A stretch of DNA of 64,000 nt from a virus (Duplodnaviria > Caudoviricetes), in the IMG/VR virus record IMGVR_UViG_3300033121_002118, positions 32,001 to 96,000 of that record. One strand, given 5' to 3'. This document shows, piece by piece, positions 494-52,608 of this stretch. Every line of letters begins with the position of its first letter. The first letter of the stretch is position 1. The notes below the pieces were generated by a model. That model ran no database searches and had not been told where the DNA came from. It saw nothing but the letters and a program-made list of their open reading frames with translations. The translations under genes were made by a program, and so were the position numbers.

Positions 494-727
494 TCAAAGT
501 CCGTGCTTTCGTCGTACGCTGCGCTTGATCTCATACAATGACTTGTTGAGATCGTTGAGACCCTGGTAGACGTCGCTATCGAACGTCTGCGCAGTGTCGA
601 GCGCGGCGTCCAGGGCAGACTGGACGCCCGACAGAGCGGCGAGCATGTCCTCCTTTGAGGCACCCTCGCGCAGCCTCGCCGCCTCTTCCCTGATGATCCG
701 TCCCAGCTCGCCCCTCGTGATCTGCAT
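494..727 (-). CDS. Leader-family small protein (putative head internal protein)
   Basis: Begins MQITRGELGRIIREEAARLREG; TAGCTA box 5 nt upstream of the ATG at 727. Confidence 0.75.
   Translation of the reverse strand: MQITRGELGRIIREEAARLREGASKEDMLAALSGVQSALDAALDTAQTFDSDVYQGLNDLNKSLYEIKRSVRRKHGL
670..721 (-). repeat. Leader-coding DNA repeat, 50/52 nt identical to 4607-4658
   Basis: Direct manual alignment. Confidence 0.85.
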
Positions 728-735
728 GTTGGTAG

Positions 736-1701
736 CTATGCGTTCGCCACTCGGGCCAGGCACGCGGCTGGATCCCACTTGAGCTCCAGGTCGGTGACGC
801 GCACCAGGCGCAGGCCCTGCCCCGCGAACCAGGAGTCCTGGGCACGATCGCGTTCCCGTGTGCCCAGGATGGCCTTGTCGCGCTCCTCCTGCGATTCCTG
901 CAGCACATGCAGCGGTCGATCCAGGCCGTGCCAGTAGACGCCGTCGAACTGCACATACGTGCGCAGGCTCTTCACGTAGAAGTCGATCCGCCAGCCGTTG
1001 ACCCAGACCTGGGCCTCCACGTCCTCCTGGCCGAACCGCTCGATGAGCAATTGTCCGAACCGTTCCTCAGCCATCGAGATCTGCCGACCGATCGTGCCGT
1101 TTGCCTTCATCGAGTCCAGCGCTTTTTCACGTGCTTCGGGCGTGTGCGCAGCCTCCACCCCTGCACGGTGAACCTCAGGAAGCATCAAGACATGAGGCAC
1201 ACCGTAGCGCTCCATGTTGGTAGCACGGTAGCGCTCCTGCATCACAGGGCTCTTGGCAGGATGATCGACACCGTAGTTCTCGAACCAAGTCGCCCGCGCC
1301 TTCTCGTCGAAGTTCGCTGACTGCGTGTGCCAGTCCACGCCAAACTTCTCCTGGTTCGTCGCCCGTGCCTTCTCCTTGACGCTCTCGGCCTGCGACGACA
1401 CGGGCACGCCATAGCGCTCCACGTTGGTGGCACGGACCCTGCGCCGGATCGAGGCGTCCTTCAGCGGGTTGTCGACGCCGTAGCGCTCGACGAAGCGCTC
1501 GCGCTTCTTGACGTCTAGCGCGCCGCCCTTGTGTTGTAGAGTGCCCTGGCACTTCCTCGAACAGGCGTGGACGGAGGCACCTGCGATGTGCTGGAAGAAC
1601 CGCTTCTCGAAGGTGCGCTGGCAGGCGTCGCAGCGGAGGACGAGGGTGCGCTTGGGATAGTCGACGCGACGGGAAGGTTCAGACTTGATCTCAAGGAGCA
1701 C
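736..1701 (-). CDS. Putative homing endonuclease: CxxC + (T)NxERYGV repeats + DUF559/Vsr-like PD-(D/E)XK domain
   Basis: Repeated ERYGV/EKFGV/ENYGV units; C-terminal WRIDFYV..YVQFDGVYWHG..GLRLVRVTD. Confidence 0.75.
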   Translation of the reverse strand: MLLEIKSEPSRRVDYPKRTLVLRCDACQRTFEKRFFQHIAGASVHACSRKCQGTLQHKGGALDVKKRERFVERYGVDNPLKDASIRRRVRATNVERYGVPVSSQAESVKEKARATNQEKFGVDWHTQSANFDEKARATWFENYGVDHPAKSPVMQERYRATNMERYGVPHVLMLPEVHRAGVEAAHTPEAREKALDSMKANGTIGRQISMAEERFGQLLIERFGQEDVEAQVWVNGWRIDFYVKSLRTYVQFDGVYWHGLDRPLHVLQESQEERDKAILGTRERDRAQDSWFAGQGLRLVRVTDLELKWDPAACLARVANA

Positions 1702-1745
1702 ACACCAATGTATTGTGCGGACTCCTCAAAATAATCGCTGCCGCG

Positions 1746-2024
1746 CTATAGAGGCCACGGCACGCCCAGGGTTCTCTCGAACTCCTGGGCGCTGGCGCGC
1801 TTCAGGCCCAGCTTTTGCATGACGCTCTCGACAGAGGCCCCGGGCCTGCTGATCTCGTCCTGAAAGGCGCGCGAGGCCATCATGGCGTTGGCCACGGCAC
1901 GCACCTCTTCCTCCGTGCCTCGGACCTTGACATGGGTGGCGCGACCCACCAACCACGCGGCCACGGACGCGAAGAAGATCTTGCCCAGCAGGTTCAGGTG
2001 CAGCTCGTGCAGGCGCTTTGCCAT
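1746..2024 (-). CDS. Conserved-looking hypothetical phage protein
   Basis: Clean ORF; N-terminal RLHE motif; ends LGVPWPL. Confidence 0.6.
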   Translation of the reverse strand: MAKRLHELHLNLLGKIFFASVAAWLVGRATHVKVRGTEEEVRAVANAMMASRAFQDEISRPGASVESVMQKLGLKRASAQEFERTLGVPWPL

Positions 2025-2075
2025 GTCAGACCTCGTGGACGTCGCTCCACAGCTTCTGTGCAGCCGTTCCCATCG

Positions 2076-2351
2076 TCACTCCGCCGTGTCGTCCCCGCCG
2101 CCGAGGTCGAGCACGAACGACCTGAGCTCCTCGTCGATGCGCTCGAGCTCCTCGGCGTAGGGCGCCTCGAGCGCGCCGCGTGAGGCGAGCTGGGATGCCC
2201 GTTCGATCAGCGTGATCGCCTCATTCAGGAGCCGAATGACCAGGCCCTGGTCAGGTGCCTCGGGCATGCTGGCTTCGCTCTCGTGCAGACGCCGCGCCTC
2301 TTCCTTGACGATGCGCCGCAGCTGTCCCCTCGTGATCCTCATCGTCTTCAT
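2076..2351 (-). CDS. Leader-family small acidic protein
   Basis: (MKT)MRITRGQLRRIVKEEARRLHES; start at 2351 or 2342. Confidence 0.75.
   Translation of the reverse strand: MKTMRITRGQLRRIVKEEARRLHESEASMPEAPDQGLVIRLLNEAITLIERASQLASRGALEAPYAEELERIDEELRSFVLDLGGGDDTAE
2296..2342 (-). repeat. Leader-coding DNA repeat: 2299-2336 is identical to 10143-10180, and the full span is 44/47 identical to 52562-52608
   Basis: Direct manual alignment. Confidence 0.85.
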
Positions 2352-2353
2352 CC

Positions 2354-2581
2354 TCACTCGAGCTCCGCCCGGAGCTCGTACAGTTCACCGTCGATCTTTT
2401 CGAGGCGGTTCATGAGCTTGGCGGACACGCCCGCCGCGGAACCCGTCCCGATCGCCTCGGAGCATGCCTCACGCAGGGCGTCGACGGCCGCCAGGAACGC
2501 ATGCCAGTCGCCCTGGGCCTCACGAAGCGCCGCTGCTTCCTCCAGAACCAGCCTCCGCAGGTGCCTCTTCGTGATGATCAA
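2354..2581 (-). CDS. Leader-family small protein
   Basis: MIITKRHLRRLVLEEAAALREA; GGAGG upstream of a TTG start. Confidence 0.7.
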   Translation of the reverse strand: MIITKRHLRRLVLEEAAALREAQGDWHAFLAAVDALREACSEAIGTGSAAGVSAKLMNRLEKIDGELYELRAELE

Positions 2582-2590
2582 GCGGCCTCC

Positions 2591-2872: not shown

Positions 2873-2897
2873 CGGGACTACATATCGGCCTGACGGC

Positions 2898-4193: not shown

Positions 4194-4664
4194 TCAGTGC
4201 TCGTCGTCCGGTCCCAGGAGGAGCCCGTCCCATTCTTTGGCCAGCTCCCGAAGGGTCTTCATGACGGCCTCGATCTTTTTTCGCAGCGCCGCCACCTCGC
4301 GACCCGAGATGCCCCCGAGCCTGTCCCTGTGCTCCTCGAGCGCGTCGGCGAAGTTTCGCATCTCGTCGCCGCCCTGCGCGGCCTCGAAGCTGCCGACGTC
4401 CTCGAGCGTCCGGGCTCCGCCTTCGCTGGATCTGGACGACCTCGACGAGGTACCGTTGAGACGATCTGCTTCCTTCGACTGCGCCAGGCTGCTGCGCGGT
4501 GTGATCCGAGGCGCGTTTTTCGGGCCATGACGACGACGCCCTGCTCCCTGCCGACGGGCCTCTTCACGTTCCCTGGCCGCCCCGAGGCCGCCCCGAGGCG
4601 CCTCCTGCAGCCTCGCCGCCTCTTCCCTGACAATCCGTCCCAGCTCGCCCCTCGTGATGATCAC
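4194..4664 (-). CDS. Leader-family protein
   Basis: GTG at 4664 behind AGGAGG; (M)IITRGELGRIVREEAARLQEA. Confidence 0.7.
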   Translation of the reverse strand: MIITRGELGRIVREEAARLQEAPRGGLGAAREREEARRQGAGRRRHGPKNAPRITPRSSLAQSKEADRLNGTSSRSSRSSEGGARTLEDVGSFEAAQGGDEMRNFADALEEHRDRLGGISGREVAALRKKIEAVMKTLRELAKEWDGLLLGPDDEH

Positions 4665-4705: not shown

Positions 4706-5110
4706 TCATCCGTCGACGATCTCGACATAGTCGATGCTGCCGCTCCAGACGACGCGCTCACCGTGCACCAGGTACAGCTCTGTGCCCTTGCCCGTGTCGT
4801 CGGTCATGCTGTACCTGCGTCCGTCCCCGTCCACGGCCTCGAGACGGGCAGGCATGACGTTTGGACGATAAGGCGACACAGACGTCACGGTCAGACGCAG
4901 CGCGGGCTTGGGACGCTGACCCATGCGCTGCGTCGCAGGACGCACTGCGAAGGCGACGCCGGGCTGCAGCTGCGAAAATGAGCTGGCAGGACGGCCCCGC
5001 CTGCTCGTCCGCATGCGCTCACGGCCCTGGTTGGTCGGGGCACCAGCTTCCTTGATTCTCTTCGCTTCTTCGGCCACGATCACGCGCAGGGCACGCCTGG
5101 AGATCAGCAT
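4706..5110 (-). CDS. Leader-family protein with beta-rich cargo
   Basis: MLISRRALRVIVAEEAKRIKEA from the ATG at 5110. Confidence 0.65.
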   Translation of the reverse strand: MLISRRALRVIVAEEAKRIKEAGAPTNQGRERMRTSRRGRPASSFSQLQPGVAFAVRPATQRMGQRPKPALRLTVTSVSPYRPNVMPARLEAVDGDGRRYSMTDDTGKGTELYLVHGERVVWSGSIDYVEIVDG

Positions 5111-5850: not shown

Positions 5851-6153
5851 TCAGCGCTGCTTCCGCAGCGCCATCCGTGCCTTCGTGATGGCGTCCACGG
5901 CGACGTTGATGTGCTCGATCAGGCTCGTGTCAGAGCCCAGAGACTCGAGCGCCAACCCGAGCGAGTCTCGCGCATCGCCCAGGTGCTGCATCGTCGTCTG
6001 GGCCTCAGGCGTGAGGGGCGCAGATGGTCCGACCGCGGGTGTGCCGCGCTTTCGACGGCGCCCACCCATTCCAGGAGGCCTCTTTCCTGCCTCCTGCAGG
6101 CGCAGCGCTTCCTCGTGCACGACCCTTCGCAGCTCGCTCAGCCTGATCCTCAT
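5851..6153 (-). CDS. Leader-family small protein
   Basis: MRIRLSELRRVVHEEALRLQEA; TAGGTA box 6 nt upstream. Confidence 0.75.
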   Translation of the reverse strand: MRIRLSELRRVVHEEALRLQEAGKRPPGMGGRRRKRGTPAVGPSAPLTPEAQTTMQHLGDARDSLGLALESLGSDTSLIEHINVAVDAITKARMALRKQR

Positions 6154-6180: not shown

Positions 6181-6468
6181 TTACGTCTCGGACTCGATGA
6201 GCTCACGCAGGTCGTCGACGATCGCGTCGAAGATTCCGCGGGCGAACCCGGATCCCGGATCGAGGACCTGGTCATACACGCCGGGAGGCAGGGCGTCGTT
6301 CACGTCGACCAGCTCCAAGACCCGCTGCATCATCCGAAAGAAATGGTCCTGGACGACCCTGTCGTGCATGGCCCTGTCGATCGGAACGGAGAGCGCCGCG
6401 TCGAGCGCCTGCAGACCCTCGATCTCTTCCTTGATGATCTTGACGAGCTCTGAGCGAGGAATGCGCAT
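6181..6468 (-). CDS. Leader-family small acidic protein
   Basis: MRIPRSELVKIIKEEI from the ATG at 6468; TAGCTA box 5 nt upstream. Confidence 0.7.
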   Translation of the reverse strand: MRIPRSELVKIIKEEIEGLQALDAALSVPIDRAMHDRVVQDHFFRMMQRVLELVDVNDALPPGVYDQVLDPGSGFARGIFDAIVDDLRELIESET

Positions 6469-9979: not shown

Positions 9980-10186
9980 TCATGCCTCGAACTGGCCCCG
10001 CAGTGCCTCGAGCACCTGCACGGGCGTGATTTGGTGTGCCTTCGCGGCGTCCAGGACGTCGTCCAGGAGGTTGTCGAAGTCCTCGGAGGACTCGAACGAC
10101 CCGCGCCCCGCCGGGTCAGGACCCATGCCCAGGCGGCCCGCTTCTTCCTTGACGATGCGCCGCAGCTGTCCCCTCGTGATGATCAT
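9980..10186 (-). CDS. Leader-family small acidic protein
   Basis: MIITRGQLRRIVKEEAGRLG. Confidence 0.75.
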   Translation of the reverse strand: MIITRGQLRRIVKEEAGRLGMGPDPAGRGSFESSEDFDNLLDDVLDAAKAHQITPVQVLEALRGQFEA

Positions 10187-10380
10187 GCTCTGCCCCTCGT
10201 GAGCTCCACCGCGACCCCCATCACTTCATCGATGCCGAACCCCTTGCGACGCAGGGCCTCCAGCGCGTCCAGCAGGTCGCCGAACTCGGGCTCAGACTGT
10301 GGGTTGCCCCTGGGCCCCTCTCCCAGTCGTGAGGCCTCCTCGCGGACGAGGCGCCGGAGCTGTCCCCTCGTGATCCGCAT
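10183..10380 (-). CDS. Leader-family small protein
   Basis: MRITRGQLRRLVREEASRLGEG; TGATG overlap with the sheath stop codon. Confidence 0.75.
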   Translation of the reverse strand: MRITRGQLRRLVREEASRLGEGPRGNPQSEPEFGDLLDALEALRRKGFGIDEVMGVAVELTRGRA

Positions 10381-13436: not shown

Positions 13437-13587
13437 GCCGTTCTCCTTGGTTCCTTCGTGTCAGCGAGTAACTATGCGACCCTCGCCGAGGCCGTCACTC
13501 ATGAATCGACGTCGTACAGGGCGACCTGCAAATCAGCCAGCTGGTCATCAAGCGCGTCCTGATCCTCACCGTCATTCTCCGTGTTTC

Positions 13588-23322: not shown

Positions 23323-23699
23323 GAGCACGTTTCACGCACGGGCAGGCGACTTCACGGCCTGAGGCAAGGTTGCGACGCATCCTGGTCTCCTCCTTCGGGC
23401 ACGACGCCGTGAAGCAGCAGGTGCGGATGGGCCGCTGGACCGTCGACTTCTACGTGGTGCCGTTGGACGTGTACGTGGAGCTGGATGGGGTCTACTGGCA
23501 CGGCCTGGACAGGCCCATGGACGTGATCGAGCGCTGTGGCACCCTCACGGACCGAAAGATCCTCGGTACCTGGCACAAGGACCGGCTGCAGGACGCCTGG
23601 TTCGGCGACAACGGGCTCAGGCTGGTCAGGATCACGGACAAGGAGCTCAGGACCTACGACGACTCGGACGTGCTCGACCGCGTCCGCGCAGGGTCCTGA
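23319..23699 (+). CDS. Stand-alone DUF559/Vsr-like endonuclease domain
   Basis: SRPEARL..WTVDFYV..YVELDGVYWHGLDRP..GLRLVRITD; ATGA overlap with the upstream gene. Confidence 0.7.
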   Translation: MRARFTHGQATSRPEARLRRILVSSFGHDAVKQQVRMGRWTVDFYVVPLDVYVELDGVYWHGLDRPMDVIERCGTLTDRKILGTWHKDRLQDAWFGDNGLRLVRITDKELRTYDDSDVLDRVRAGS

Positions 23700-26863: not shown

Positions 26864-26996
26864 CTCGTCCTCGCCCCCTTCCGGCCCGTGCCGTTCGACC
26901 GATAACTAGGTCGACGATCGGCGGGCCTCCACAGGATGTACCGACCCACGTCAGGGTTGGCCCATGTCCGAGTTTCTCGGAATTGACTGCGACCTC

Positions 26997-27479: not shown

Positions 27480-28349
27480 TCATGCGCCTGCCTTCAGTGT
27501 CTTGGTCACGACTGCGGTGTACTCCTGCCTGGTCGTGAGCGTGGGCTTGATGACGCTGATGGCGGTGCCGCTGATGTTGTCGACGAGGTAGATGTTCCCG
27601 TCCGCGTCAGCCATCTTTTTTCTGTCACGAATGAAGTGTGCCTTCTCGCCGACGTCGAGACCCGCGCCCGGACGGGACGGAAAGAACACATACGAAAAGT
27701 CGGGCGGCTGGAACGTCTCGTAGTCCAGCGCATCCTCGCCGACGATTCCGGCGTAACGCCGGGCCCAACGGTACGTATTGGTGCGCTCAAGCTTCGCCTC
27801 GCTCGGCGACCTGGCGTCCCAGATGAGGCTCGAGGCGCTGTCGTCGTATAGCTCATGGCCCGCCGACTCGGCCGCGACGTAGAGCTGACGCTTCGTGAAC
27901 TTTGTCGCAGGCAGGACATCAAGAGCCCTGACGTCCAATGAGGCCTGCGCGCCACGCGCGGCCGAGGCCCGCTGTCTTTCCTGCTTCTTCTCGGCGTCCC
28001 TGATCTCCTCCATGCGTGCCGCTTGGAACCATGGCCCGCTGTCGTCGTGCTGCAGTGGGCCGATGCGCCACGTGGACGCGGCCTCGGGATCTGAGACGAG
28101 GAAATCGTGGATGCGTGCGTGCTCGGCTGGGCTGACGGTCGCGCCGTCGGCGTCGTGCTGGCGACCAGGCCTGACCCTCGACCACGAAGCATACGCGAGC
28201 GCCAGGCGGATCTTCCTGAGCAGCGGGAAGCGCCGTGCGATATTCTCGACAGCATCCATCTGCGCCTTCATCCGCCGCTCGGCCGCAGCGAAGTCATGCT
28301 TGACGGCCTCCTGCACAAGCCGCCTGATTCTGCCCAGCGTGATCCTCAT
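27480..28349 (-). CDS. Leader-family protein, 289 aa, unknown cargo
   Basis: MRITLGRIRRLVQEAV; TATCTA box 5 nt upstream. Confidence 0.7.
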   Translation of the reverse strand: MRITLGRIRRLVQEAVKHDFAAAERRMKAQMDAVENIARRFPLLRKIRLALAYASWSRVRPGRQHDADGATVSPAEHARIHDFLVSDPEAASTWRIGPLQHDDSGPWFQAARMEEIRDAEKKQERQRASAARGAQASLDVRALDVLPATKFTKRQLYVAAESAGHELYDDSASSLIWDARSPSEAKLERTNTYRWARRYAGIVGEDALDYETFQPPDFSYVFFPSRPGAGLDVGEKAHFIRDRKKMADADGNIYLVDNISGTAISVIKPTLTTRQEYTAVVTKTLKAGA

Positions 28350-29331: not shown

Positions 29332-31224
29332 TCAAATGATGTTAAGATCGAGCACTGTCACAATCCCGTAAAAATCACTGCGGATCATCTTCTTCCCGTA
29401 CCGGGTCATCACGCCCTTGCGGGGCGTGAAGTCCTCGGCCTGGAAGATGGTGGGCGTCACGATCAGCGGCACGTAGGGCGCGTACACGTACCCGGTCTCG
29501 AGGTAGCTGTTGCCCTTGTAGCCGACCAAGATGCGGTTGCGCGGGAAGTACGGGTCCTTGTAGACCGTGAACCTGTTCGACAGGCTTCCCACGTTCTCGC
29601 AGCCGATCGTGAAGGGCGAGCCCACCTGACCGTCGCCGTCGATCGAGTACTTGGGCTTGTAGAACACCGACGACTCGAGGATCGTGCAGACGTCCGGGCC
29701 CGTGACCAGGAAGTTGGCGCTGCCGCGCAGGGTCTTCCTGTGGATCGTGTTGGCGCAGTCGATGATGGTCTCGACCAGCGTCTGGTACCAGTCCGCGACC
29801 GTGCCCGTGAACTGCGGGCCGATCGACAGCGAGTTGGCCAGGTTGACGGGCGCGCCCGTCAGCTTGTTGACGAAGCGGCCCGGGGCGCGCGACCAGTACA
29901 TCTGGGCGCCGTTGGCCTGCGTGAGCAGGTCCATCAGGATCTCGCGGTCGATCTCCAGGGCGATCTGCTCGCTCAGGATGGTCGTGAGCTCCACCTCGGC
30001 GTCCATCGAGTGGTACGCGTTCAGGTCCTGCGCGAGCTCGGGGCTCCACTTGGCCCTGAGCTTCCTGGAGGTCGCCGTGATCGAGATGGACTCGATCTTG
30101 ATGTCGATCTCCGGGATGACAGGCGACGGCGTCGAGCCGAAGTCGGTCTCGAACGAGGGGACGGTCAGGACCGCGCCCGTGCTGTCGCCTGCCACCAGCG
30201 CGTCGGCGATGGAGATCGACATCTTGGCCGCGGCCGTGTTCCAGGTCGGAACCGAGCCGCCGTTGCTGAGCTTCAGGGCGAACAGGACGTGGTCACCGTT
30301 GAGCGGATCGGGCGTGAAGGTCGAGCCGTTCCAGTTGCCGCGCTGGTTGAGCCTGCGCAGGTTCAGGAGGCCCTGGCCCGACTGGTACGTCTGGCCCCAC
30401 GCCGTGGTGCTGCCCGCGCCCGGGAACGAGAAGACGGCCAGCTGGTCCACGGCCAGCAGGTCGGCCTTCGGGATCGAGGACTGGATGGCCGCGGTCGAGA
30501 CCAGGCCGAAGACCACGTCCAGCTGCGCGTTCGCCAGGTCCACGTCGATCTGCGGGTCGAAGCGGAGCATCCTGGCGTTGGTGCCCGAGAAGTCGGTCGC
30601 CGCCGCGACGATGCCGCCCGCGGTCCAGGCCTCGGACGCGCCCGTCCAGGCGCCGATGTTGAGGTTCGAGCCCGACATGCTGAGGGTGCCGGAGTGCACC
30701 TTCGTGTAGCCGGTGTTCACCATGTCGTACATGCCGCCCGTGGCGAGCGAGCCCGACTGGATCCCCTTGCCCGTGGGGTTGTTGTAGATCGACTGGCCGC
30801 GCTGGTAGGTCTCGAAGGTGGGAGAGCTGGTCATGCCCGCCTCGCCGCCCACGTTGGACCCGTACGTGTAGTCGATGAAGAAGATCAGGCCTGAGGGCAG
30901 CGACATGGGCTGGATCGAGACCAGCTCGTTCGCGACCAGGCCACCGAAGACGCGGCGGATGATCGGAAACGCGATGTTGCTGAAGCCCTGGATCTGCCCG
31001 CTCGACGTGACGGCGCCGCCGCCCGTCGACAGGGAGTTCGACTCGCGCAGGACCTGCGCCGCCTGGTTCTCCAGGAGCTGGGCCATGTACTCGCGGCGGT
31101 GGCTCTCGAGCCCACGGAGCAGGCCTGTCCTGCTCCACTTCTCGATGAGGCGCCGCCTCTCGACACCGACGTGGCGCTCGCGGAAGCCCTCAGTGAGCTG
31201 CTCGAGCGTGAAAAACTTCGCCAT
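29332..31224 (-). CDS. gp23: Major capsid protein (T4 gp23-like)
   Basis: KWSRTGLL.GL..LLENQA; FP.IRRVF..L.A.ELVS.QPM.LPSGL; RKLRAKWSPELAQDLNAYH; GYVYAPYVPL..F.PRKGVMTRY. Confidence 0.97.
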   Translation of the reverse strand: MAKFFTLEQLTEGFRERHVGVERRRLIEKWSRTGLLRGLESHRREYMAQLLENQAAQVLRESNSLSTGGGAVTSSGQIQGFSNIAFPIIRRVFGGLVANELVSIQPMSLPSGLIFFIDYTYGSNVGGEAGMTSSPTFETYQRGQSIYNNPTGKGIQSGSLATGGMYDMVNTGYTKVHSGTLSMSGSNLNIGAWTGASEAWTAGGIVAAATDFSGTNARMLRFDPQIDVDLANAQLDVVFGLVSTAAIQSSIPKADLLAVDQLAVFSFPGAGSTTAWGQTYQSGQGLLNLRRLNQRGNWNGSTFTPDPLNGDHVLFALKLSNGGSVPTWNTAAAKMSISIADALVAGDSTGAVLTVPSFETDFGSTPSPVIPEIDIKIESISITATSRKLRAKWSPELAQDLNAYHSMDAEVELTTILSEQIALEIDREILMDLLTQANGAQMYWSRAPGRFVNKLTGAPVNLANSLSIGPQFTGTVADWYQTLVETIIDCANTIHRKTLRGSANFLVTGPDVCTILESSVFYKPKYSIDGDGQVGSPFTIGCENVGSLSNRFTVYKDPYFPRNRILVGYKGNSYLETGYVYAPYVPLIVTPTIFQAEDFTPRKGVMTRYGKKMIRSDFYGIVTVLDLNII

Positions 31225-33601: not shown

Positions 33602-34063
33602 TCAGTCCACCAGCTCCCGCACGAGGCGCCGACGCTGCTCCCTGATGCTGGCCAGGCGACGCATCAGGCGTGCCTCCTCGGTCTTCAGGGCCTTGGCATG
33701 GTCGACCTTGCGCTCGAGCGTGCCCGCGTACTCGTCCGCGTCGACCTCGTCGGCCTTGACGCTCTCCACGTCCTTCATCTTGCCCAGGCCCTTGGCCTCG
33801 GTCCGACGCGAGCGCGTCATCTCCTCCCCCACGATCTTCCTGAGCAGCTCCGATGTCAGCCTCATGGTCCCCCGTCCTTTTCCTTCAGGCACGCTCATGG
33901 CCTGATCGACGCCTGATCCGTCGCACTTTCCACAGTTTCCGCTGCCACCGCAAGCCTTGCAGCGACCGCTGTCAGCGCGTCCCGTGGCACCGCACTCCAT
34001 GCAGCCTCCATCACCGTGGCAGGCTGTGCATCGCACCCTGGACTCTCGCACGACATTGCGCAT
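33602..34063 (-). CDS. DnaJ-type CxxCxGxG zinc-finger segment fused to a leader-family domain
   Basis: CTACHGDG, CMECGATG, CKACGGSG, CGKCDGSG, then MRLTSELLRKIVGEEM at 33865; TACTTA box 5 nt upstream of 34063. Confidence 0.6.
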   Translation of the reverse strand: MRNVVRESRVRCTACHGDGGCMECGATGRADSGRCKACGGSGNCGKCDGSGVDQAMSVPEGKGRGTMRLTSELLRKIVGEEMTRSRRTEAKGLGKMKDVESVKADEVDADEYAGTLERKVDHAKALKTEEARLMRRLASIREQRRRLVRELVD

Positions 34064-34574: not shown

Positions 34575-36086
34575 TCAGCGGACCAGGAGCTCAGCCAGCA
34601 GGCGGTCGATGCGCTCGACACGGGTCAACAGCCTGCCCTCGGCGATCCAAGGCGACCGCGCGCCCTCGGGCAGCATGAAGGCGCCCGGGGTGGAGGGCTC
34701 GCTCACGAAGTCCCAACAGATCAGCTGGAAGTCGTCCTGCACGACGACGTAGTCCCCCTGCTTCTGGGTCGAGCCCACGCCGCGTGAGGAGATGCCCAGC
34801 TGCACGTCGCCCTCCAGCAGGTCCTGGAGGATCTTGCCGGAGGGTGTGTTGAGGATCATGACGCGACCCCTGACCACGCCATCGTGGTCCATCGCGGCCT
34901 CGAGCACCCTGTGGGAGACGTTCTTGTAGCTCACCACGGACGAGTCGGGATGGTCGAGCTCGCCTGTCGCCCTGTGCTCGTTGATGAACTTCTGGTAGTT
35001 CCTGACCTCGCGCTCCAGGATCGCACGCGGGTAGACGCGGCCGTTCTGGTTGAGCGTGTCGGCCTTCTGAAGGATGCCGCTCACGACGATGAAGCCGTCG
35101 TTCTGCTCCCGCGACTCCTTGACCAAGGCAGGCGTCCGTGAGACGAACTCAGGCGCGGACACGAGGAGCCTGGGACCGGCCTGGGCACCAGACGGAGCGG
35201 CGCCCTCGACCAGCGGCGCGGCCGTGCCATCGACCTCGGACCGCAACCTGAGCCACGACAAGGCGCGGGCGAGGAGCGCGTCGTCCGCCTTGGTCAGGTC
35301 CTCCGCCACGACTGCCCGGCGGGCGGCACCGATCTGCTCATGCAGCACGACCAGGTCCTGCCCGGCCCGGTCGAGCCCCATGCGATCGAGCGAGGCAAGC
35401 GCGACCGCCCGGGCCTCCTCAAGGCGCCTGGTGAGCGCAGCGGGGTCAAAACCACCCGCAGACCTGAATGCGTAGGCACGCAGCAGGTCGCGCTGCGCAG
35501 GATCGAGCTGGCTCGAGTAGCGCTCGTTCAGGCGTCGGGTCATGATGTGTGCCGCGAGCCTGTTCACGCCTGGGCTCTCGTCGTTCAAGAAGCGCTCGCC
35601 CGCCGGGGTCGCCGCGGCCGACAGCCTCCGCACGAGCTCGTCCTCGTATCGAGCCAACCGGCCCAGGTCAGCATGGGCAGGATCGCGCCATTCGTTGAAC
35701 AGCGTCTGCACAGTGGCGTAGGCGCGGTAGTCCTCGACAGGGGCCTCGAAGAACGAATCGTCGTGAAAGGACCGTGCGATGGCCCGCAGCAGCTCGCCCT
35801 TCTCCTTGTCGAGCCGGACATGGTCCAGGCCCCGCGCCGCCGCCTTCGCCTCCCCCAAGATCGACGATGCGGTGGCCGGCGTGACGCCCGAGGTCTTCAT
35901 CAGCGCCCGAGCGATGCGGAGCTCCTTGTGCAGCTCCGTCCCCTGGGCAAAGTGCCGCTTCAGGAGCCGCAGTGCCGCCGCCTGGGCGCGCTTGTCGCCC
36001 TCCACGAGCGCCGCCGACATCCGGCGCACGATGAACTCCCACAGCAGCCCTGAATTCCTCTTTTTGTTGTGGCCACGGGTCGCCAT
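34575..36086 (-). CDS. gp21: Prohead protease (gp21/S77-like) fused to an N-terminal domain of about 300 aa
   Basis: C-terminal GILQKADTLNQNGRVYP..GELDHP..SH..TPSG.IL..LGISSRGVGS..DFVSEPSTPGA. Confidence 0.88.
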   Translation of the reverse strand: MATRGHNKKRNSGLLWEFIVRRMSAALVEGDKRAQAAALRLLKRHFAQGTELHKELRIARALMKTSGVTPATASSILGEAKAAARGLDHVRLDKEKGELLRAIARSFHDDSFFEAPVEDYRAYATVQTLFNEWRDPAHADLGRLARYEDELVRRLSAAATPAGERFLNDESPGVNRLAAHIMTRRLNERYSSQLDPAQRDLLRAYAFRSAGGFDPAALTRRLEEARAVALASLDRMGLDRAGQDLVVLHEQIGAARRAVVAEDLTKADDALLARALSWLRLRSEVDGTAAPLVEGAAPSGAQAGPRLLVSAPEFVSRTPALVKESREQNDGFIVVSGILQKADTLNQNGRVYPRAILEREVRNYQKFINEHRATGELDHPDSSVVSYKNVSHRVLEAAMDHDGVVRGRVMILNTPSGKILQDLLEGDVQLGISSRGVGSTQKQGDYVVVQDDFQLICWDFVSEPSTPGAFMLPEGARSPWIAEGRLLTRVERIDRLLAELLVR

Positions 36087-42464: not shown

Positions 42465-42764
42465 TCAGTCGACCTCAAGCCTCAACGTGATCGGAGGCCT
42501 CAGCGCCGCGCGAGAGGCGACCTGCGCGCGTTCGGGCCGACGTCCGGCGCTCCAGGCGGCGCGATCGGGCTGCACCCACTCGAGCTCGCACGCGTGACAG
42601 CATCCGTGCTCCAGAAACGAGGCCTCGTCGTCTGACGATGCCATCGCCCGATCGCACAGCGGACAGCACATGGGGACGGGCGTCGCCACGTCGTCGGGCA
42701 TGACCAGGACGTAACCCACGCGGTCGAGCGCCGTCCTGTTTCGAGGAAGGGCGACGGCGGTCAC
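42465..42764 (-). CDS. Small Zn-binding hypothetical protein
   Basis: CPLC..GCC.AC..WV....W..G.RP; overlaps the SbcDC stop codon. Confidence 0.6.
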   Translation of the reverse strand: MTAVALPRNRTALDRVGYVLVMPDDVATPVPMCCPLCDRAMASSDDEASFLEHGCCHACELEWVQPDRAAWSAGRRPERAQVASRAALRPPITLRLEVD

Positions 42765-45700: not shown

Positions 45701-45934
45701 CCCGTCAGACCTGGGCACGGTCGCGTCGGCCAACAACCTAAGCCACCATGTCAGGAACTCGATGTACTCGGGCGTGATGCCTTGGGTCTTGGTGTGGAAC
45801 ACGTCGCCTTCGACTGCGATGTGCTCGACGCCCTGTGCCCGACAGTCAGCTGCGAAGGCCCGAAAGACCTCTCTTGCCTCATCATGTCGTGAAAGACCAC
45901 GAATGTGGATGTCTGCGGTATGCGCGATCTTCAC
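42761..45934 (-). CDS. Mre11/SbcD nuclease fused to Rad50/SbcC ATPase (gp47-gp46-like)
   Basis: ADIH, GDVFH, GNHD, LGDIH; GPNRSGKSS; CxxxxxxC hook-like motif; SGMEK; IIDEGFGSLD; ISH; GTG start at 45934. Confidence 0.9.
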   Translation of the reverse strand: MKIAHTADIHIRGLSRHDEAREVFRAFAADCRAQGVEHIAVEGDVFHTKTQGITPEYIEFLTWWLRLLADATVPRSDGQPTVHLRLGNHDGNLVNSTRQDAVTPVVDALGDPRVRLYKASGTYEFAPGFSWCVFGIFDQQGWKDVRPTPAGVNIACYHGGVAGARSETDWEIEGGLDLTFFEAYDFVFLGDIHRTQHLARRGPGDKPWISYPGTPIQQNYAEAREHCYLLWDIRSRDDFDVTERPLPNPRPFVTLEWRGSAEETVAKAGPLPPGSRCRVKGGDDLTQGDMSALTGVLRTTCAPTEVTFKVERQSARQVAAPDRSRLVKADLRSPEVLLRLLKEHHGTAATSVTDADWEEVSRLLAGYLGAIGADDDGARNVRWNLRCLTFDNMFPYGEGNSIDFDALQGITGIFGPNRSGKSSIVGTLMYSLFNTTDRGPIENLHVINARRSYCRSRFVVGVNDVDYLIERQTVRHENRKGIQQAVTSLNVFQAMPDGSYRDLCGEQRYDTEKVIKGLIGTARDFQLTSLSAQGDVERFIREGSTQRRLILARFLDIDVFERLHDAAKEDARSLRDVLRRRPVLDHAAEERRCLDRLAELDLGLRALEDEKRANAVEEESVRAELGRHSGFVPVTEAQLQDQDRALDLARGRLDSVKRELAQIDETAERRRQDVERLEAVKQKHDPAELRARLAQVSELSRATDALRHMVESSKAELDRSLRSLKTLAGVPCGDSFPDCRFIKDAHVDKSKLDSQRAAVSDLIARLEDKERDLTAAAAERIEERLKKHDRAVELLSKEAIDGARSEARREHLAASLPKLEDDLSQAQARRDQLVRDRDATENVEVIGLRARLDALRTRLHEIDSSSLRLATDRGRTHEALERCQESARELAVLERQLRLYELVMAGCSKRGIPRMIVAAELPMINAEISSILHGIVDFTVELDADEDTNALDAYLNYGDSRRLLELGSGMEKFVSSIAIRVALTNVSSLPKTDTFIIDEGFGSLDDSGREAVGRLLQSLKRYFRSILVISHVDEIKDVADNVLEITKIEKDSRVVAP

Positions 45935-46692
45935 AGTGGTCGCTTTCCTTTGATGAAGTCCACATCCGTGATCCTCATCAGCCTTATGCCCTGCTCCACG
46001 AACCAGGCGTCCTGCTTCCTGTCCGTCTCCCACTTCCTGACAATCTGCTGATCTCGAGGGACCGAGCTGCCGCGGATCTCTTCGATGGGACGGTCCAGGC
46101 CATGCCAGTAGACGCCATCCAGCTGCACGTACGTGTCCAGCGATGGAACGTAGAAATCAATGGGCCAGCCATTGACGTGTTTCTGGCGCTCGACATTCCC
46201 GAAGCGCTTGACCAGGTACTCATGGAGCCCATCCTCCGGTTGTGACTTCCTGTAGGTGCCATTGCGCTTCATGGTCTCATGGCGCTTCCTGCATCCCTCA
46301 GGGGTATTACCAGGATTCTGCCAGTCGTCAGGCCGAGTGGCATGAAACCTTTTGAGCGAAGCAGAACGTCGTTTTTCAGCAGTGCTACTGTGCGACGCAG
46401 CACAGGCACGTGCGAGGACGTCTGGACGAATCAAGGCAATGTCTGCGCGATACAGGCATCCACCAACCTTGAAGGCATCCCATCGACATCTGTTGGTGCA
46501 GAAGTGATGCTGCTGCTCAGACTTCATCTGCGCGTGGTGCCTGACCTCAAACTCACGCTGGCACTGGTCACAACGCATGATCGCCACCTGCGAGATGGCA
46601 CGTTTGTCGTCAGGACGCAGACGACGAGGTCGAACGATGTCGTCCTTGAGCGGCTTTCGCTTCCTGGGTCGCGTCTCAAAGCGCAGGAACAC
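45931..46692 (-). CDS. Putative homing endonuclease (CxxC + DUF559/Vsr-like domain)
   Basis: CDQC..FCTNRC; WPIDFYVPSLDTYVQLDGVYWHGLDRP. Confidence 0.75.
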   Translation of the reverse strand: MFLRFETRPRKRKPLKDDIVRPRRLRPDDKRAISQVAIMRCDQCQREFEVRHHAQMKSEQQHHFCTNRCRWDAFKVGGCLYRADIALIRPDVLARACAASHSSTAEKRRSASLKRFHATRPDDWQNPGNTPEGCRKRHETMKRNGTYRKSQPEDGLHEYLVKRFGNVERQKHVNGWPIDFYVPSLDTYVQLDGVYWHGLDRPIEEIRGSSVPRDQQIVRKWETDRKQDAWFVEQGIRLMRITDVDFIKGKRPL

Positions 46693-46738: not shown

Positions 46739-46999
46739 TCAGGACATGTTCGTGATCTCGTCGACCATGCCCTCGAGGGCCACCTGGATCGCCTCGCGCA
46801 CGTCCTGCTCGTTTCTCTCGTCCTGTGCCCAGGACGGCAGGAGACCATGCGACTGCAACGAGTCGAAAATCGTATCGGTCATCTCCTGTACGAACTCGAT
46901 GAGCTCCGGACGATTATCGTCGTTGAACGGACTGCCCTCACGAAGCCTGCGAGCCTCTTGGACGACGATCTACTTCAGCTGCCCACGTGTGATACGCAT
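46739..46999 (-). pseudogene. Leader-family gene with an in-frame TAG at codon 10 (absent from the ORF track)
   Basis: Manual translation MRITRGQLK*IVVQEARRLREGSPFNDD...EITNMS*; TACATA box 5 nt upstream. Confidence 0.75.
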
Positions 47000-50572: not shown

Positions 50573-50578
50573 GAGGCC

Positions 50579-50863
50579 TCAATCGAGGAAGAATGACACT
50601 GTCTGGTTCGTCTCGTCAACGTGCCAGCTCAACGAGGCGTCCTGCTCGTCATCCCCATGCTGGGCCCACTCTTCGGGTGAGATCCCGAGCTCGGCCAGGC
50701 GATGCATCGGCACGTCTTCATAGGCATAGCTGCCCTGGGCAAACTCTTCCAGCTGATCGAGCACGGCATAGATCCGATCTCTGAACTCGTCGGCGCGGGT
50801 CGCATCATGAGACTCAAGTGCTTCCCGCAGCAGACCACGCAGACGCTTGATCGTCATCTTCAT
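50579..50863 (-). CDS. Leader-family small acidic protein
   Basis: MKMTIKRLRGLLREALES; TAAGTA box 6 nt upstream. Confidence 0.7.
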   Translation of the reverse strand: MKMTIKRLRGLLREALESHDATRADEFRDRIYAVLDQLEEFAQGSYAYEDVPMHRLAELGISPEEWAQHGDDEQDASLSWHVDETNQTVSFFLD

Positions 50864-50868
50864 GCACG

Positions 50869-51267
50869 TTACTTATTCGACTGGCAGTCCTTGGAGCGTT
50901 TCTTCCAACCGCGAGGCGGCTTCCAGCCCGCGGCGAGCGCTTTCTTCTCCCACTCCTCCAGCGTGACATCCGCCTGCGCGGCACGAACCGCAGCACGTGC
51001 AAGTGCCAGGGCCGCCCTGGCACTTGCATAGGACTCGAACTCGAAACAACCCTCGCCCTGGCGCTCGTGCTTCAGCGGGGCCAAGGCGTGCTCGGCGGCC
51101 CAGGTCTCGAGATCATCATCCTTGACGAGGGCCCGGTCTTTGGTCCTACGGTTCTTGTTCCAGGCCTGGCCCAACAGCAGGCCCATCTCTCGTTCCTCAG
51201 CAAGGTACCAGCCCACGCAGTAACCCCCGTGGTGGAGCGAGTCGACGACCAACCTGTCCTTCGCCAT
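50869..51267 (-). CDS. Hypothetical protein
   Basis: ORF with TAGGTT 6 nt upstream; WEKKALAAGWKPP. Confidence 0.6.
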   Translation of the reverse strand: MAKDRLVVDSLHHGGYCVGWYLAEEREMGLLLGQAWNKNRRTKDRALVKDDDLETWAAEHALAPLKHERQGEGCFEFESYASARAALALARAAVRAAQADVTLEEWEKKALAAGWKPPRGWKKRSKDCQSNK

Positions 51268-51311
51268 GGTAGAAACCTACCATGTCCGTGCCGCTGGCAG
51301 ACACGGTGCAG

Positions 51312-51908
51312 TCAGCAGGAGACCAGGGACCGCAGCCCGGCCAGGGCGACCACGAAGCTGTCGGCCTCGTCCATCGCCCAGTCCTTCACGGCACCGCCCC
51401 TCTTGGTCGGAAACGCGACATGGGCCAGCGGGCCTCCAGGTGCCGTGAGCTGTCGGAAGGTCTGGCGCTTCGCGTCCAGCCTCTTCCCGGCCTCGTCCAC
51501 CGCGTCGCGCCTGACCACGATCCCGCACGACTTTCGGGCCGAGGTCGCGGCCAGCGGCTCCGGCGTGCAGCCCGTCAGGGACCTCACCATCGCGCACGTG
51601 ATGCCGTTGAACTTGGCCAGCGTCATCAGGGTCGCGGCAGAGGAGAGGCCGGGCCTGAAGGCCTGCAACGACTCCTCGACGAAGGCGTGCGTGAGCCCTC
51701 CCTCGACGTCAGCGTCTGCCTTGACCGTCTCCAGAAACGCCTGGAGCTCGTCCACCTTGGCCCAGAAGCCTTCGATCCTCGAGAGCTCGACATGCCGCAT
51801 GGAGACGATCTTGTGCCCGTTGGGCACGTGCTCCAGCAACGTTGCCGCCGTCACGGCGGTGCTGACGTCCATGCCCAGGACCAGACGCCTTTCCCCGTTC
51901 TCAGCCAT
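51312..51908 (-). CDS. ruvC: RuvC-like Holliday junction resolvase
   Basis: VLGMDVST, FVEE, LAKFNG, DEADSFVVA acidic catalytic pattern. Confidence 0.75.
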   Translation of the reverse strand: MAENGERRLVLGMDVSTAVTAATLLEHVPNGHKIVSMRHVELSRIEGFWAKVDELQAFLETVKADADVEGGLTHAFVEESLQAFRPGLSSAATLMTLAKFNGITCAMVRSLTGCTPEPLAATSARKSCGIVVRRDAVDEAGKRLDAKRQTFRQLTAPGGPLAHVAFPTKRGGAVKDWAMDEADSFVVALAGLRSLVSC

Positions 51909-51987
51909 GCGACGACACTAGCGCGGGTCCATGATCGGTAAACGAACAATCCCACGAAACCCGACCATGGTCCACAGCACGGAAGAT

Positions 51988-52395
51988 TCAGAGGATGCCC
52001 AGGGCCTTGAGCTCGACCTCCGTGACCACCACGAATTCGGCGCTGTTGGCCGGGCACCAGGCCCGGGCCGCCGCGAACTTCTTGACGTTGGTGGGCCGAT
52101 CCACCCGCTTGGCGGGCTTGATCTCGACCACGAGGCGCCGGCCGTCCGCGAGCTCCACCAGGAAGTCGGGCAGGTAGACCCGGACCCTGCCCGACCTGGG
52201 CGCGCTCACGTAGCGGATCTCGAGGCACTCGTAGCCCCAGGTCTTCACAGCCGGGTCTGCGTCCAGGTGAGCCATGTACCGGGCCTCCCACGACGACCTG
52301 AATCGATGGGTCTGTCCCGTTTTGGTGGACGTGTAGTCGCCCTTCTTGGCGCGTCGAGAGACCCGACGCCTCCTTGGCTTCCTCGTAGCTGCCAT
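51988..52395 (-). CDS. TnsA-N/T4 gp4-like endonuclease (head-completion nuclease candidate)
   Basis: FRSSWEARYM.HLD..V..WGYE..YLPDF..VEIKP. Confidence 0.7.
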   Translation of the reverse strand: MAATRKPRRRRVSRRAKKGDYTSTKTGQTHRFRSSWEARYMAHLDADPAVKTWGYECLEIRYVSAPRSGRVRVYLPDFLVELADGRRLVVEIKPAKRVDRPTNVKKFAAARAWCPANSAEFVVVTEVELKALGIL

Positions 52396-52401
52396 GATCT
52401 A

Positions 52402-52608
52402 TTAGGCCCTCACGTCGTCCCGCAGCCTCGACACCAGGGCCTCGAAGTCCTCGCCCGTGTCGTCCATCGCCGTCTGGAACGCGTCCACGAGCTGGTCGTA
52501 CGTCTCGGTCCGGTCCGCGAGGTCGGAGAAGTCAGGACGACCACGCTCCGAGAGCCTCTGGGCCTCTTCCTTGACGATCCTGCGCAGCTGTCCCCTCGTG
52601 ATCCTCAT
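52402..52608 (-). CDS. Leader-family small acidic protein
   Basis: MRITRGQLRRIVKEEAQRLSE; TAAGTA box 5 nt upstream. Confidence 0.78.
   Translation of the reverse strand: MRITRGQLRRIVKEEAQRLSERGRPDFSDLADRTETYDQLVDAFQTAMDDTGEDFEALVSRLRDDVRA

What the first reader, a model, noticed from the sequence alone, without database searches (positions are those of the whole stretch)
670..52608. Leader-coding DNA is conserved at nucleotide level, suggesting cassette-like cargo swapping
Seen in sequence: 670-721 vs 4607-4658 are 50/52 identical, 2299-2336 vs 10143-10180 are 38/38 identical, and 2296-2342 vs 52562-52608 are 44/47 identical. Synonymous positions are included, and similarity stops at the end of the leader. 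Inference: the roughly 50-nt leader module is copied or recombined in front of new cargo ORFs, or acts as a homology anchor for exchange and deletion of cargo genes. This would turn captured ORFs into virion-delivered proteins.
Basis: partly seen in the sequence, partly recalled or inferred. Interest (0 to 1): 0.75.

Follow-up and report, generated by a model that had tools for sequence, protein, structure and literature searches.

The report
Phage leader repeats that swap cargo
In an uncultured T4-like jumbo phage, about two dozen small genes start with the same roughly 20-codon leader, and comparison with close relatives shows that these leader copies are the points where cargo genes are deleted, inserted, moved and replaced.

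Summary

The stretches are the first 17-21 codons of minus-strand genes. There are 17 clear cases in the window and about 24 in the 105-kb contig. All encode M-R-I-T-R-G-Q-L-R-R-I-V-K-E-E-A-x-R-L-x-E in front of cargos with no detectable similarity to each other.

Codon bias plus protein constraint does not explain the cited pairs. In simulation the best pair gave P<2e-4, the next two 0.004 and 0.007. The family as a whole shows no excess of shared codons, and orthologous leaders are no better conserved than their cargos. The identity therefore reflects recent copying, not selection on the DNA.

Relatives at 98%, 94% and 80% nucleotide identity show the mechanism:
- three clean one-cassette indels whose junctions lie inside the leader and leave chimeric leaders;
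- one cargo replaced between two leaders;
- three cassettes sitting at different leader loci in different genomes.

The capsid-targeting role is only inferred, from the L/I-x-E ends and the presence of a T4-type prohead protease. Virion delivery and capture of foreign ORFs were not shown.

The closest known case is shuffling at the T-even internal-protein loci. This scan has reported leader-tagged cargo sets before on other phage DNA.

The parts
494..727 (-). Leader gene '721' (77 aa). Its leader is 50/52 identical to that of the gene at 4194-4664. A TA..TA box lies 11 nt before the ATG.
   Evidence: the same arrangement is seen in an independent assembly, L100
736..1701 (-). DUF7487 / restriction-endonuclease-like mobile gene. 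One of 4 copies (others at 20012-20977, 45931-46692 and 23271-23699 on the + strand). Present or absent at different sites in close relatives.
2076..2342 (-). Leader gene '2336' (88 aa). Its leader (2295-2342) is a chimera. The 5' part matches the leader of an extra 82-aa cassette present in L095. The 3' part and the cargo match the next L095 gene.
   Evidence: clean 262-bp indel, crossover within about 2295-2315
2354..2581 (-). Leader gene '2575' (75 aa, TTG start).
4194..4664 (-). Leader gene '4658' (156 aa, GTG start). It consists of leader, Arg-rich linker and cargo. In L089 the homologous cargo sits at a different locus, before the DNA-binding-protein (PHROG 624) gene at 8-490.
4706..5110 (-). 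Leader gene '5104' (134 aa). The first 63 nt of the gene are 62/63 identical to L101. The cargo (4706-5005) is replaced by an unrelated one in L101. L089 keeps the window's type.
5851..6153 (-). Leader gene '6153' (100 aa).
6181..6468 (-). Leader gene 'Z' (95 aa) with a chimeric leader. Its 5' half is that of cassette Y, which is present in L101 and L089 but absent here. The junction is at about 6432-6441, on the 9-nt repeat AGATCATCA.
   Evidence: the window arrangement is confirmed in the independent assembly L106
9685..9963 (-). Leader gene '9948' (92 aa, divergent leader).
9980..10186 (-). Leader gene '10180' (68 aa). Its leader is 38/38 identical to the 2336 leader.
10183..10380 (-). Leader gene '10374' (65 aa), starting on the sheath stop codon. 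In L101 a 311-bp extra cassette (X') lies between the sheath and this gene. The junction is inside the 17-nt ATCACGAGGGGACAGCT (10358-10374).
   Evidence: the window arrangement is confirmed in L105
10380..13436 (-). Tail sheath (1018 aa), used as the anchor to find relatives. A paralogous second sheath lies at 13588-16614.
27480..28349 (-). Leader gene '28343' (289 aa), next to the major capsid gene.
29332..31224 (-). Major capsid protein, T4 gp23 type. The N-terminal region contains V-L-R-E followed by S, a candidate maturation site.
33602..33865 (-). Leader-like small gene '33859' (87 aa) between the protease and the scaffold-like ORF.
34575..36086 (-). Prohead protease (Peptidase_S77, T4 gp21 type) with a 320-aa N-terminal extension.
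46739..46999 (-). Leader gene '46993' (86 codons) with an in-frame TAG at codon 10 (46970-46972). The frame downstream is intact.
   Evidence: homologue P0129 has Arg at that position
50579..50863 (-). Leader gene '50857' (94 aa, divergent leader).
52402..52608 (-). Leader gene '52602' (68 aa). Its leader is 44/47 identical to the 2336 leader.
58467..58851 (-). Leader gene '58851' (128 codons) with an in-frame TGA at codon 9 (58825-58827). The frame downstream is intact.
61386..61721 (-). Leader gene '61703' (111 aa).

Best explanation
The repeated 50-60 nt are the coding 5' ends of a family of small genes on the strand that carries the structural genes. The host genome is an uncultured, 65% G+C, T4-like jumbo phage. 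The encoded peptide is a basic amphipathic helix. It ends in [ILV]-[ILV]-x-E (residues 11-14) and usually also in L-x-E (residues 19-21), which is the site type cut by T4-type prohead proteases, and this phage encodes such a protease.

Shown: the leader copies behave as dispersed, in-frame direct repeats at which recombination removes, adds, moves or replaces the downstream cargo. The process leaves chimeric but intact leaders. The very high identity of particular leader pairs is the footprint of that recent copying. It is not caused by codon bias or by a constraint on the DNA or RNA.

Inferred: the crossovers use 9-24 nt of identity. They probably arise through the phage's own recombination machinery or through single-strand annealing after double-strand breaks. 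The many homing-endonuclease genes in the region are a plausible source of such breaks.

Inferred by analogy with the T4 capsid targeting sequence: the leader loads the cargo into the prohead core and is then clipped off, so cassette exchange would change the set of proteins carried in the virion.
For: Anatomy. 21 of 21 leaders have [ILVM][ILVMA]x[EDQ] at residues 11-14, and 14 of 21 have [LIVM]-x-E at 19-21, followed by G/A/S/T and often P. All lie on the minus strand. The window encodes gp23-type capsid, gp20-type portal, S77 protease and a T4-type large terminase.

The peptide, not the DNA, is what is kept. It is present in relatives with 35-66% G+C. A degenerate search with the window's leader DNA found nothing in IMG/VR outside this genome.

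Pair-specific codon excess: P<2e-4, 0.0036 and 0.0066, with no family-wide excess. Orthologous leaders are no more conserved than their cargos.

Recombination at leaders:
(1) L095, about 94% identical, has an extra 82-aa cassette. The window's 2336 leader is 5' like the first L095 leader and 3' like the second.
(2) L101, 98% identical with an identical sheath protein, has an extra 311-bp cassette after the sheath. The junction is inside 17 nt of leader.
(3) L101 and L089 carry cassette Y. The window lacks it and has a chimeric Y/Z leader.
(4) The 5104 cargo is replaced in L101 between two conserved leaders.
(5) The same cargos sit at different leader loci. The 82-aa cargo (motif S-A-T-A-H-K-I-L-D-L) is after the sheath in L089 but beside the 2336 gene in L095. 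The 4658-type cargo is before the DNA-binding-protein gene in L089. Y sits at different positions in L101 and L089.
(6) Leader and cargo have different histories. The 2336 cargo is 83.5% identical to L089 at the DNA level, but its leader is only 31/48. The 721 and 4658 leaders share a derived variant that their orthologues lack.

Independent assemblies confirm the window's arrangement and those of L095 and L089.

Literature. T4 internal proteins carry 10-19-residue propeptides that target them to the core and are removed by gp21 (PMC9026906). Internal proteins are diverse apart from the conserved targeting sequence (PMC3012670). Short conserved elements mediate shuffling in T4-type phages, and about 50 bp or less of homology suffices (PMC2839356).
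Against: No virion proteomics or cleavage data exist for this phage or for any relative carrying the leader. No cultured phage with this leader was found, and Pfam and PHROGs give no family. The leader shows no detectable sequence homology to the T4 targeting sequence.

Many leader genes sit among tail genes (sheath, tube, baseplate hub and a long 1514-aa protein without a family match), not in a head-internal-protein locus.

The direction of each event (deletion here or insertion there) is settled by parsimony only for cassette Y. One junction uses only 9 nt of identity, which is microhomology rather than homologous recombination.

The codon GAA at the first Glu of the E-E pair is used in 12 of 19 leaders against 9% genome-wide. 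Context accounts for only part of this, so some constraint at the nucleotide level cannot be excluded.
Confidence: 0.72

Rival explanations
1. The identity is only what strong codon bias plus a conserved peptide would give. No recombination is involved.
For: Codon bias is strong (ATC 97%, AAG 97%, CAG 95%, GAG 91%). Family-wide, identical codons do not exceed expectation.
Against: The cited pairs exceed every one of 5000 simulations, or all but 0.4-0.7% of them. They share rare codons (GGA 8%, GAA 9%, AGG 26%). Chimeric leaders and cassette indels are seen directly in relatives.
Confidence: 0.04
2. The leader DNA or RNA is itself a functional element, such as a translation-initiation region of leaderless mRNAs, a regulatory binding site or an RNA structure. 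Under this reading it is conserved for that reason.
For: Ten of 21 leader genes have a TA..TA box about 11 nt before the start codon, counting three genes whose upstream ATG gives an M-A-K start. This suggests very short 5' untranslated regions. The rare GAA codon is over-used at one position (12/19).
Against: There is no family-wide excess of synonymous identity. Orthologous leaders diverge as fast as their cargos. Relatives keep the peptide with entirely different codons across 35-66% G+C. The DNA pattern is absent from other IMG/VR contigs.
Confidence: 0.08
3. The genes arose by ordinary tandem duplication, after which the cargos diverged very fast. No exchange took place.
For: Many leader genes are adjacent. 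The 10180 and 10374 cargos share a short acidic pattern. A 178-bp near-exact duplication exists in the contig.
Against: Neutral sites in the leader would diverge along with the cargo, yet leader pairs are 96-100% identical beside unalignable cargos. Cargos show no pairwise similarity at E<=1e-3. A cargo is replaced outright between genomes 98% identical. The same cargos occupy different loci in different genomes.
Confidence: 0.08
4. The structural differences are artefacts of metagenome assembly, such as strain chimeras or collapse at repeats.
For: All the genomes compared are metagenomic contigs. Read-level checks could not be run.
Against: The repeats at the junctions are 9-24 nt long. This is shorter than the word lengths such assemblers generally use in their final rounds (my own knowledge; the assemblers used were not examined). 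The window's arrangement recurs in an independent Logan assembly. L095's arrangement recurs in 4 assemblies and L089's in 6. All junctions keep the reading frame.
Confidence: 0.04
5. The recombination is real, but the leader is not a capsid-targeting propeptide. It could be a recognition tag for another machine, such as a modifying enzyme, loading into the tail lumen, or an oligomerisation helix.
For: Leader genes are scattered among tail genes. An earlier finding of this scan on another phage re-read a shared N-terminal tag as a radical-SAM recognition site.
Against: No radical-SAM gene is present in the 105-kb contig, though the contig is only 28% complete. The leader ends in the L/I-x-E motif and an S77 protease is present. 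A leader-like gene lies between the protease and the scaffold-like ORF.
Confidence: 0.25

Closest known systems
T-even phage internal-protein (IP) loci: capsid targeting sequence plus flanking repeats (Repoila et al. 1994, as described in PMC2839356 and PMC3012670; review PMC9026906)
   Same: Many otherwise unrelated small proteins share a short N-terminal leader that ends at a gp21-type cleavage site. The set of cargos differs between close relatives. Short conserved sequences are thought to mediate their shuffling. The phage has the T4 head-assembly gene set.
   Different: In T-even phages the IP genes are confined to two small loci, and the proposed recombination elements are intergenic promoter and stem-loop blocks. 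Here about 24 genes are spread through the tail and head modules, and the mapped junctions lie inside the coding leader itself, producing chimeric leaders. The leader is 14-21 residues long with no detectable homology to MKTYQEFIAE. Packaging and cleavage are unproven.
PeSL-mediated modular shuffling in RB49/phi1 (Arbiol et al. 2010, PMC2839356; PMC4122927)
   Same: Dispersed repeats under 100 bp flank variable ORFans. Insertions, deletions and replacements between very close relatives have their endpoints in the repeats. Excision would give a chimeric repeat.
   Different: PeSLs are non-coding elements combining an early promoter and a terminator stem-loop, and each cassette is a separate transcription unit. 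Here the repeat is translated, many cassettes abut without an intergenic spacer, and recombination must keep the frame. Mini-circles were not tested.
Leader-tagged cargo sets in other uncultured T4-like jumbo phages reported earlier by this scan
   Same: Dozens of unrelated proteins carry a shared N-terminal tag ending in [ILV]-x-E, next to a T4-type prohead protease.
   Different: Those notes concern the protein-level system on other DNA. The present finding adds breakpoint-level evidence from close relatives that the leader DNA is the recombination site.

Membership tests
T4-type capsid targeting sequence / internal-protein system | A short N-terminal propeptide (10-19 aa in T4) shared by otherwise unrelated proteins | tested here: met
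   About 24 ORFs share a 14-21-residue leader. Their cargos show no pairwise similarity at E<=1e-3.
T4-type capsid targeting sequence / internal-protein system | The propeptide ends at a gp21-type cleavage motif (L/I-x-E followed by a small residue) | tested here: met
   21/21 have [ILV][ILV]xE at residues 11-14, and 14/21 have [LIVM]xE at 19-21 followed by G/A/S/T. This is a sequence motif only.
T4-type capsid targeting sequence / internal-protein system | The genome encodes a T4-type prohead protease and head-assembly genes | tested here: met
   Peptidase_S77 at 1.6e-21, Gp23 at 1.6e-73, Portal_T4 at 1.1e-69. PHROG matches to head maturation protease, portal and large terminase.
T4-type capsid targeting sequence / internal-protein system | The proteins are packaged in the head and the propeptide is removed | not testable with these tools
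T4-type capsid targeting sequence / internal-protein system | Sequence homology of the leader or cargo to T4 IPI-III or Alt | tested here: not met
   No Pfam or PHROG family at a meaningful E-value. No significant tblastn hit in 50,697 phage records.
PeSL / IP-locus type modular shuffling | Short dispersed repeats flank variable ORFs, and the indels or replacements between close relatives end in those repeats | tested here: met
   Three indels and one replacement have their ends in leaders.
PeSL / IP-locus type modular shuffling | The repeat is a non-coding promoter plus stem-loop terminator block | tested here: not met
   The repeat is the translated leader. Several cassettes abut or overlap the previous stop codon. 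Only 10 of 21 have a TA..TA box upstream.
PeSL / IP-locus type modular shuffling | Circular excision products (mini-circles) | not testable with these tools
Stop-codon recoding (TAG or TGA read as an amino acid) | The stop codon is not used as a terminator, occurs in-frame in many genes, and a suppressor tRNA is present | tested here: not met
   TAG ends six of the 56 minus-strand ORFs picked by a longest-first, non-overlapping selection. The large structural genes have no in-frame stops. No tRNA is present in the contig. Two different stop codons are involved.

The most novel reading that the evidence does not exclude
The coding leader works as the attachment site of an integrase-free, in-frame cassette system. 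Breaks made by the many homing endonucleases in this region are repaired by annealing between leader copies. Phage populations thereby continually reshuffle a pool of virion-loaded effector proteins across many loci. The nonsense codons found at leader codons 7-10 of three otherwise intact genes would be a way of switching single cassettes off without losing them.
Probability: 0.12. Interest if true: 0.8.

Novelty: new variant of a known kind. Interest (0 to 1): 0.55.

Why it matters
If the leader is a capsid-loading tag, this phage clade carries a large and rapidly exchangeable set of proteins that enter the host with the DNA. These are the kind of proteins that counter host defences in T4. 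More than 2000 related tail-sheath proteins (E<=1e-100) were found in metagenomes, and 326 related stretches in IMG/VR from genomes of 35-66% G+C, so the clade is large.

The breakpoint maps give a concrete, testable rule for how that set turns over. Recombination between translated repeats keeps the reading frame and the tag, so almost every product is expressible. This extends the idea of modular shuffling in T4-type phages from intergenic regulatory repeats to a coding signal peptide. It also offers a natural design for swapping payloads in phage engineering.

Tried and rejected
1. TAG recoded as Gln. One leader has TAG exactly where the others have CAG, which suggested recoding. I rejected it: TAG terminates six of the selected minus-strand ORFs, the second TAG replaces Arg, a third leader has TGA, and no tRNA is present.

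2. 'Leaderless' homologues of two cargos in L089 as evidence of leader capture. I rejected this. One has a TTG-started leader that the gene caller missed. The other has a leader in a different frame, an apparent frameshift.

3. Degenerate leader DNA pattern against IMG/VR: no match outside this genome.

4. tblastn of a leader protein against 50,697 phage records: only chance-level hits.

5. Pfam and PHROGs on 20 leader proteins: nothing meaningful.

6. Radical-SAM partner, a lead from an earlier finding: none in the contig.

8. Searching the full records behind L101, L089 and L103: not held.

10. Representative search with the 46993 gene: one true homologue (P0129) and one spurious tandem-repeat protein (P0127).

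11. Avoidance of Shine-Dalgarno-like sequence as the reason for GAA at the first Glu: context raises GAA use only to 15-19%, against 63% observed. This remains unexplained.

Full report
**What the window is**

The window is bases 32001-96000 of a 104,860-bp IMG/VR viral contig that CheckV rates 28% complete. It has about 65% G+C.

Most genes lie on the minus strand. They include:
- a gp23-type major capsid protein (29332-31224);
- a Peptidase_S77 prohead protease (34575-36086);
- a gp20-type portal carrying an intein and an HNH domain (36088-39567);
- a T4-type large terminase (40422-42029);
- two paralogous tail sheaths of about 1000 aa (10380-13436 and 13588-16614);
- a tail tube and a baseplate hub.

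The nearest cultured phages share under 50% capsid identity. Close uncultured relatives have contigs of 199-294 kb. This is therefore an uncultured T4-like jumbo phage.

**The observation**

The three identities hold exactly: 50/52, 38/38 and 44/47. Read on the minus strand, each stretch is the start of an ORF. The consensus peptide is M-R-I-T-R-G-Q-L-R-R-I-V-K-E-E-A-x-R-L-x-E.

A motif scan and a profile search find 17 clear leader genes in the window and about 24 in the contig, all on the minus strand. Two further ORFs in the window are doubtful. One 21-codon 'solo' leader has no cargo.

All 21 leaders examined have [ILV][ILV]xE at residues 11-14. Fourteen also have [LIVM]-x-E at residues 19-21, followed by a small residue.

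Leader-leader matches are the main repeats within the genome. With the first 24 residues removed, the cargos show no pairwise similarity at E<=1e-3. They also match no Pfam or PHROG family.

**Is the DNA identity more than codon bias?**

I kept the 17 peptides fixed and redrew their codons from this genome's usage 5000 times. The best simulated pair never reached the observed 16 of 17 identical codons. The second and third observed pairs were reached in 0.36% and 0.66% of runs.

The cited pairs also share rare codons: GGA 8%, GAA 9% and AGG 26%.

Over all pairs, however, identical codons are not in excess: 671 against 701+-30. Between orthologous genes of the window and L101, the leader is no better conserved than the cargo. 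Examples are 90.5% vs 96.3%, 95.2% vs 88.9% and 87.3% vs 87.8%.

More distant relatives with 35-66% G+C keep the peptide but use other codons. The window's leader DNA pattern occurs in no other IMG/VR contig.

The peptide is therefore what selection keeps. The near-identity of particular DNA copies is a sign of recent common origin.

**Close relatives show what happens at leaders**

A protein search with one leader gene and with the sheath, followed by contig look-ups, gave three useful relatives:
- L101: sheath protein 100% identical, 98-98.6% nucleotide identity in structural genes;
- L095: about 94%;
- L089: about 80%.

The comparisons gave five results.

(a) After the sheath, L101 has an extra 311-bp cassette. 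It holds a leader and a roughly 70-residue cargo not found in the window's contig. The alignment breaks inside the 17-nt ATCACGAGGGGACAGCT, which is repeated in L101.

(b) L101 and L089 both carry a 70-73-aa gene Y. The window lacks it. The window gene at 6181-6468 begins with Y's leader and continues as the next gene, Z. The junction is on a 9-nt repeat. Since both the near and the far relative have Y, loss in the window's lineage is the simpler reading.

(c) L095 has an extra 82-aa gene between the orthologues of 2354-2581 and 2076-2342. The window's 2336 leader matches the first L095 leader on its 5' side, including the sequence upstream. It matches the second on its 3' side, across a clean 262-bp gap.

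(d) The 5104 gene keeps 62/63 bases over its first 63 nt. From 5005 down to the next leader (4661-4599) its cargo has no similarity to L101's, while L089 has the window's type. This is a cargo replaced between two leaders.

(e) The same cargos sit at different leader loci in different genomes. The extra L095 cargo follows the sheath in L089. The 4658-type cargo lies before the DNA-binding-protein gene in L089. Y has different neighbours in L101 and L089.

Not all differences between the window and L101 are at leaders. By my count from the alignment pieces, four or five of about eleven have an end in a leader. Others involve homing-endonuclease-like genes.

**Leader and cargo have separate histories**

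The 2336 cargo is 83.5% identical to L089 at the DNA level, but its leader is only 31/48.

The 721 and 4658 leaders match at 46/48 over the 48 nt compared. They share the derived R-G-E-L-G. The 4658 orthologue in L101 and the genes at the 721 locus in L095 and L089 read R-E-Q-L-G or R-E-R-L-G. This fits copying or conversion within this genome.

Outside the window, a 178-bp direct repeat (176/178 identical) duplicates the 3' end of the long 1514-aa gene plus a leader start, and it brackets two leader genes. That locus holds different cargos in all three relatives.

**Artefact check**

The window's arrangement at two of the junctions and at the 721 locus recurs in an independent Logan assembly. 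L095's arrangement recurs in four assemblies and L089's in six. The junction repeats are 9-24 nt, all junctions keep the frame, and the compared contigs come from different samples.

**Function of the leader**

This part is inference. In T4, propeptides of 10-19 residues target the internal proteins to the prohead core and are removed by gp21 at L/I-x-E. The internal proteins are otherwise diverse, and the targeting sequence has been proposed as an evolutionary device for loading varied proteins (PMC9026906; PMC3012670).

Four features fit that model:
- the leader's form;
- its two candidate cut sites;
- the S77 protease;
- a capsid N-terminal region containing V-L-R-E-S, and a leader-like gene between the protease and the scaffold-like ORF.

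Four points count against confidence:
- there is no homology to T4's sequence;
- no proteome exists;
- many leader genes lie among tail genes;

No radical-SAM gene is present in this partial contig.

**Comparison with what is known**

The closest precedent is the pair of polymorphic internal-protein loci of T-even phages. There, flanking promoter and stem-loop blocks were proposed to shuffle the genes. The related PeSL cassettes of RB49/phi1 have crossovers mapped in the repeats, and about 50 bp or less of homology is enough for the T4 machinery (PMC2839356).

The present case differs in three ways. The recombining repeat is the translated leader itself. The genes are spread over many loci in the tail and head modules. 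The products are chimeric, in-frame leaders.

I class it as a new variant of a known kind. Leader-tagged cargo sets have already been reported by this scan on other phage DNA. What is added here is breakpoint-level evidence for how they turn over.

**Verdict**

The reading that leaders serve as anchors for cassette exchange and deletion is supported. Capture of foreign ORFs and virion delivery are not shown.

Noticed in passing
window 46970-46972 and 58825-58827; contig 26855-26857 (outside the window): Three leader genes have an in-frame stop at leader codon 10, 9 and 7 (TAG, TGA, TAG). The frame stays open for 76-119 further codons. One TAG replaces the conserved CAG (Gln). A 45%-identical homologue (P0129) has Arg at the position of the second. 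Three nonsense codons within a four-codon stretch of genes about 100 codons long is unexpected for random decay.
   Followed up: partly
window 736-1701, 20012-20977, 45931-46692, 23271-23699 (+): A four-copy family of DUF7487 genes with a C-terminal restriction-endonuclease-like region. The copy at 20012-20977 is absent from the 98%-identical L101. L095 has a copy at a site that is empty in the window. This looks like a mobile homing-endonuclease family.
   Followed up: partly
window 36088-39567: The portal gene (T4 gp20 type) is interrupted by an intein that carries an HNH endonuclease domain.
   Followed up: no
window 34575-36086: The prohead protease has a helical N-terminal extension of about 320 residues, absent from T4 gp21. 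Its S77 domain matches only residues 332-474.
   Followed up: no
window 42761-46033: A single 1090-aa ORF joins a Metallophos (SbcD / gp47-like) nuclease domain to an SbcC / gp46-like ATPase. These are two separate genes in T4.
   Followed up: no
window 10380-16614: Two paralogous tail sheath genes of about 1000 aa lie in tandem (35% identity to each other). This arrangement is conserved in all relatives examined.
   Followed up: no
upstream of the starts at window 727, 6153, 6468, 28349, 46999, 50863, 52608 (and 61721): A TA..TA box lies 11-12 nt before the start codon of 10 of 21 leader genes, with no Shine-Dalgarno sequence in between. This suggests a late-type promoter and near-leaderless mRNAs. 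Other leader genes have GGAGG-like sites instead.
   Followed up: partly
codon 14 of the leaders (e.g. window 2301-2303, 10145-10147, 52567-52569): The first Glu of the E-E pair uses the rare codon GAA in 12 of 19 leaders, against 9% genome-wide. The next Glu is mostly GAG. Sequence context raises GAA use only to 15-19%.
   Followed up: partly
contig 25776-25953 and 26847-27024 (outside the window; L099:1276-1453 and 2347-2524): A 178-bp direct repeat (176/178 identical) holds the 3' end of the 1514-aa gene and a leader start, and brackets two leader genes. In L089 one 407-aa gene covers the two cargos in the opposite order.
   Followed up: partly
contig 4927-4989 (outside the window): A 21-codon ORF consists of a leader start followed at once by a stop. 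It looks like a leader remnant without cargo.
   Followed up: no
L089:10720-11170: In the 80% relative, a leader (frame 1) and a 4658-type cargo (frame 2) overlap in different frames. This is an apparent frameshift, identical in L090, the one other assembly of this phage examined.
   Followed up: partly
L016:13051-13200, L021:6589-6740: In more distant G+C-rich relatives the gene after the sheath carries two leader motifs in tandem within one ORF.
   Followed up: no
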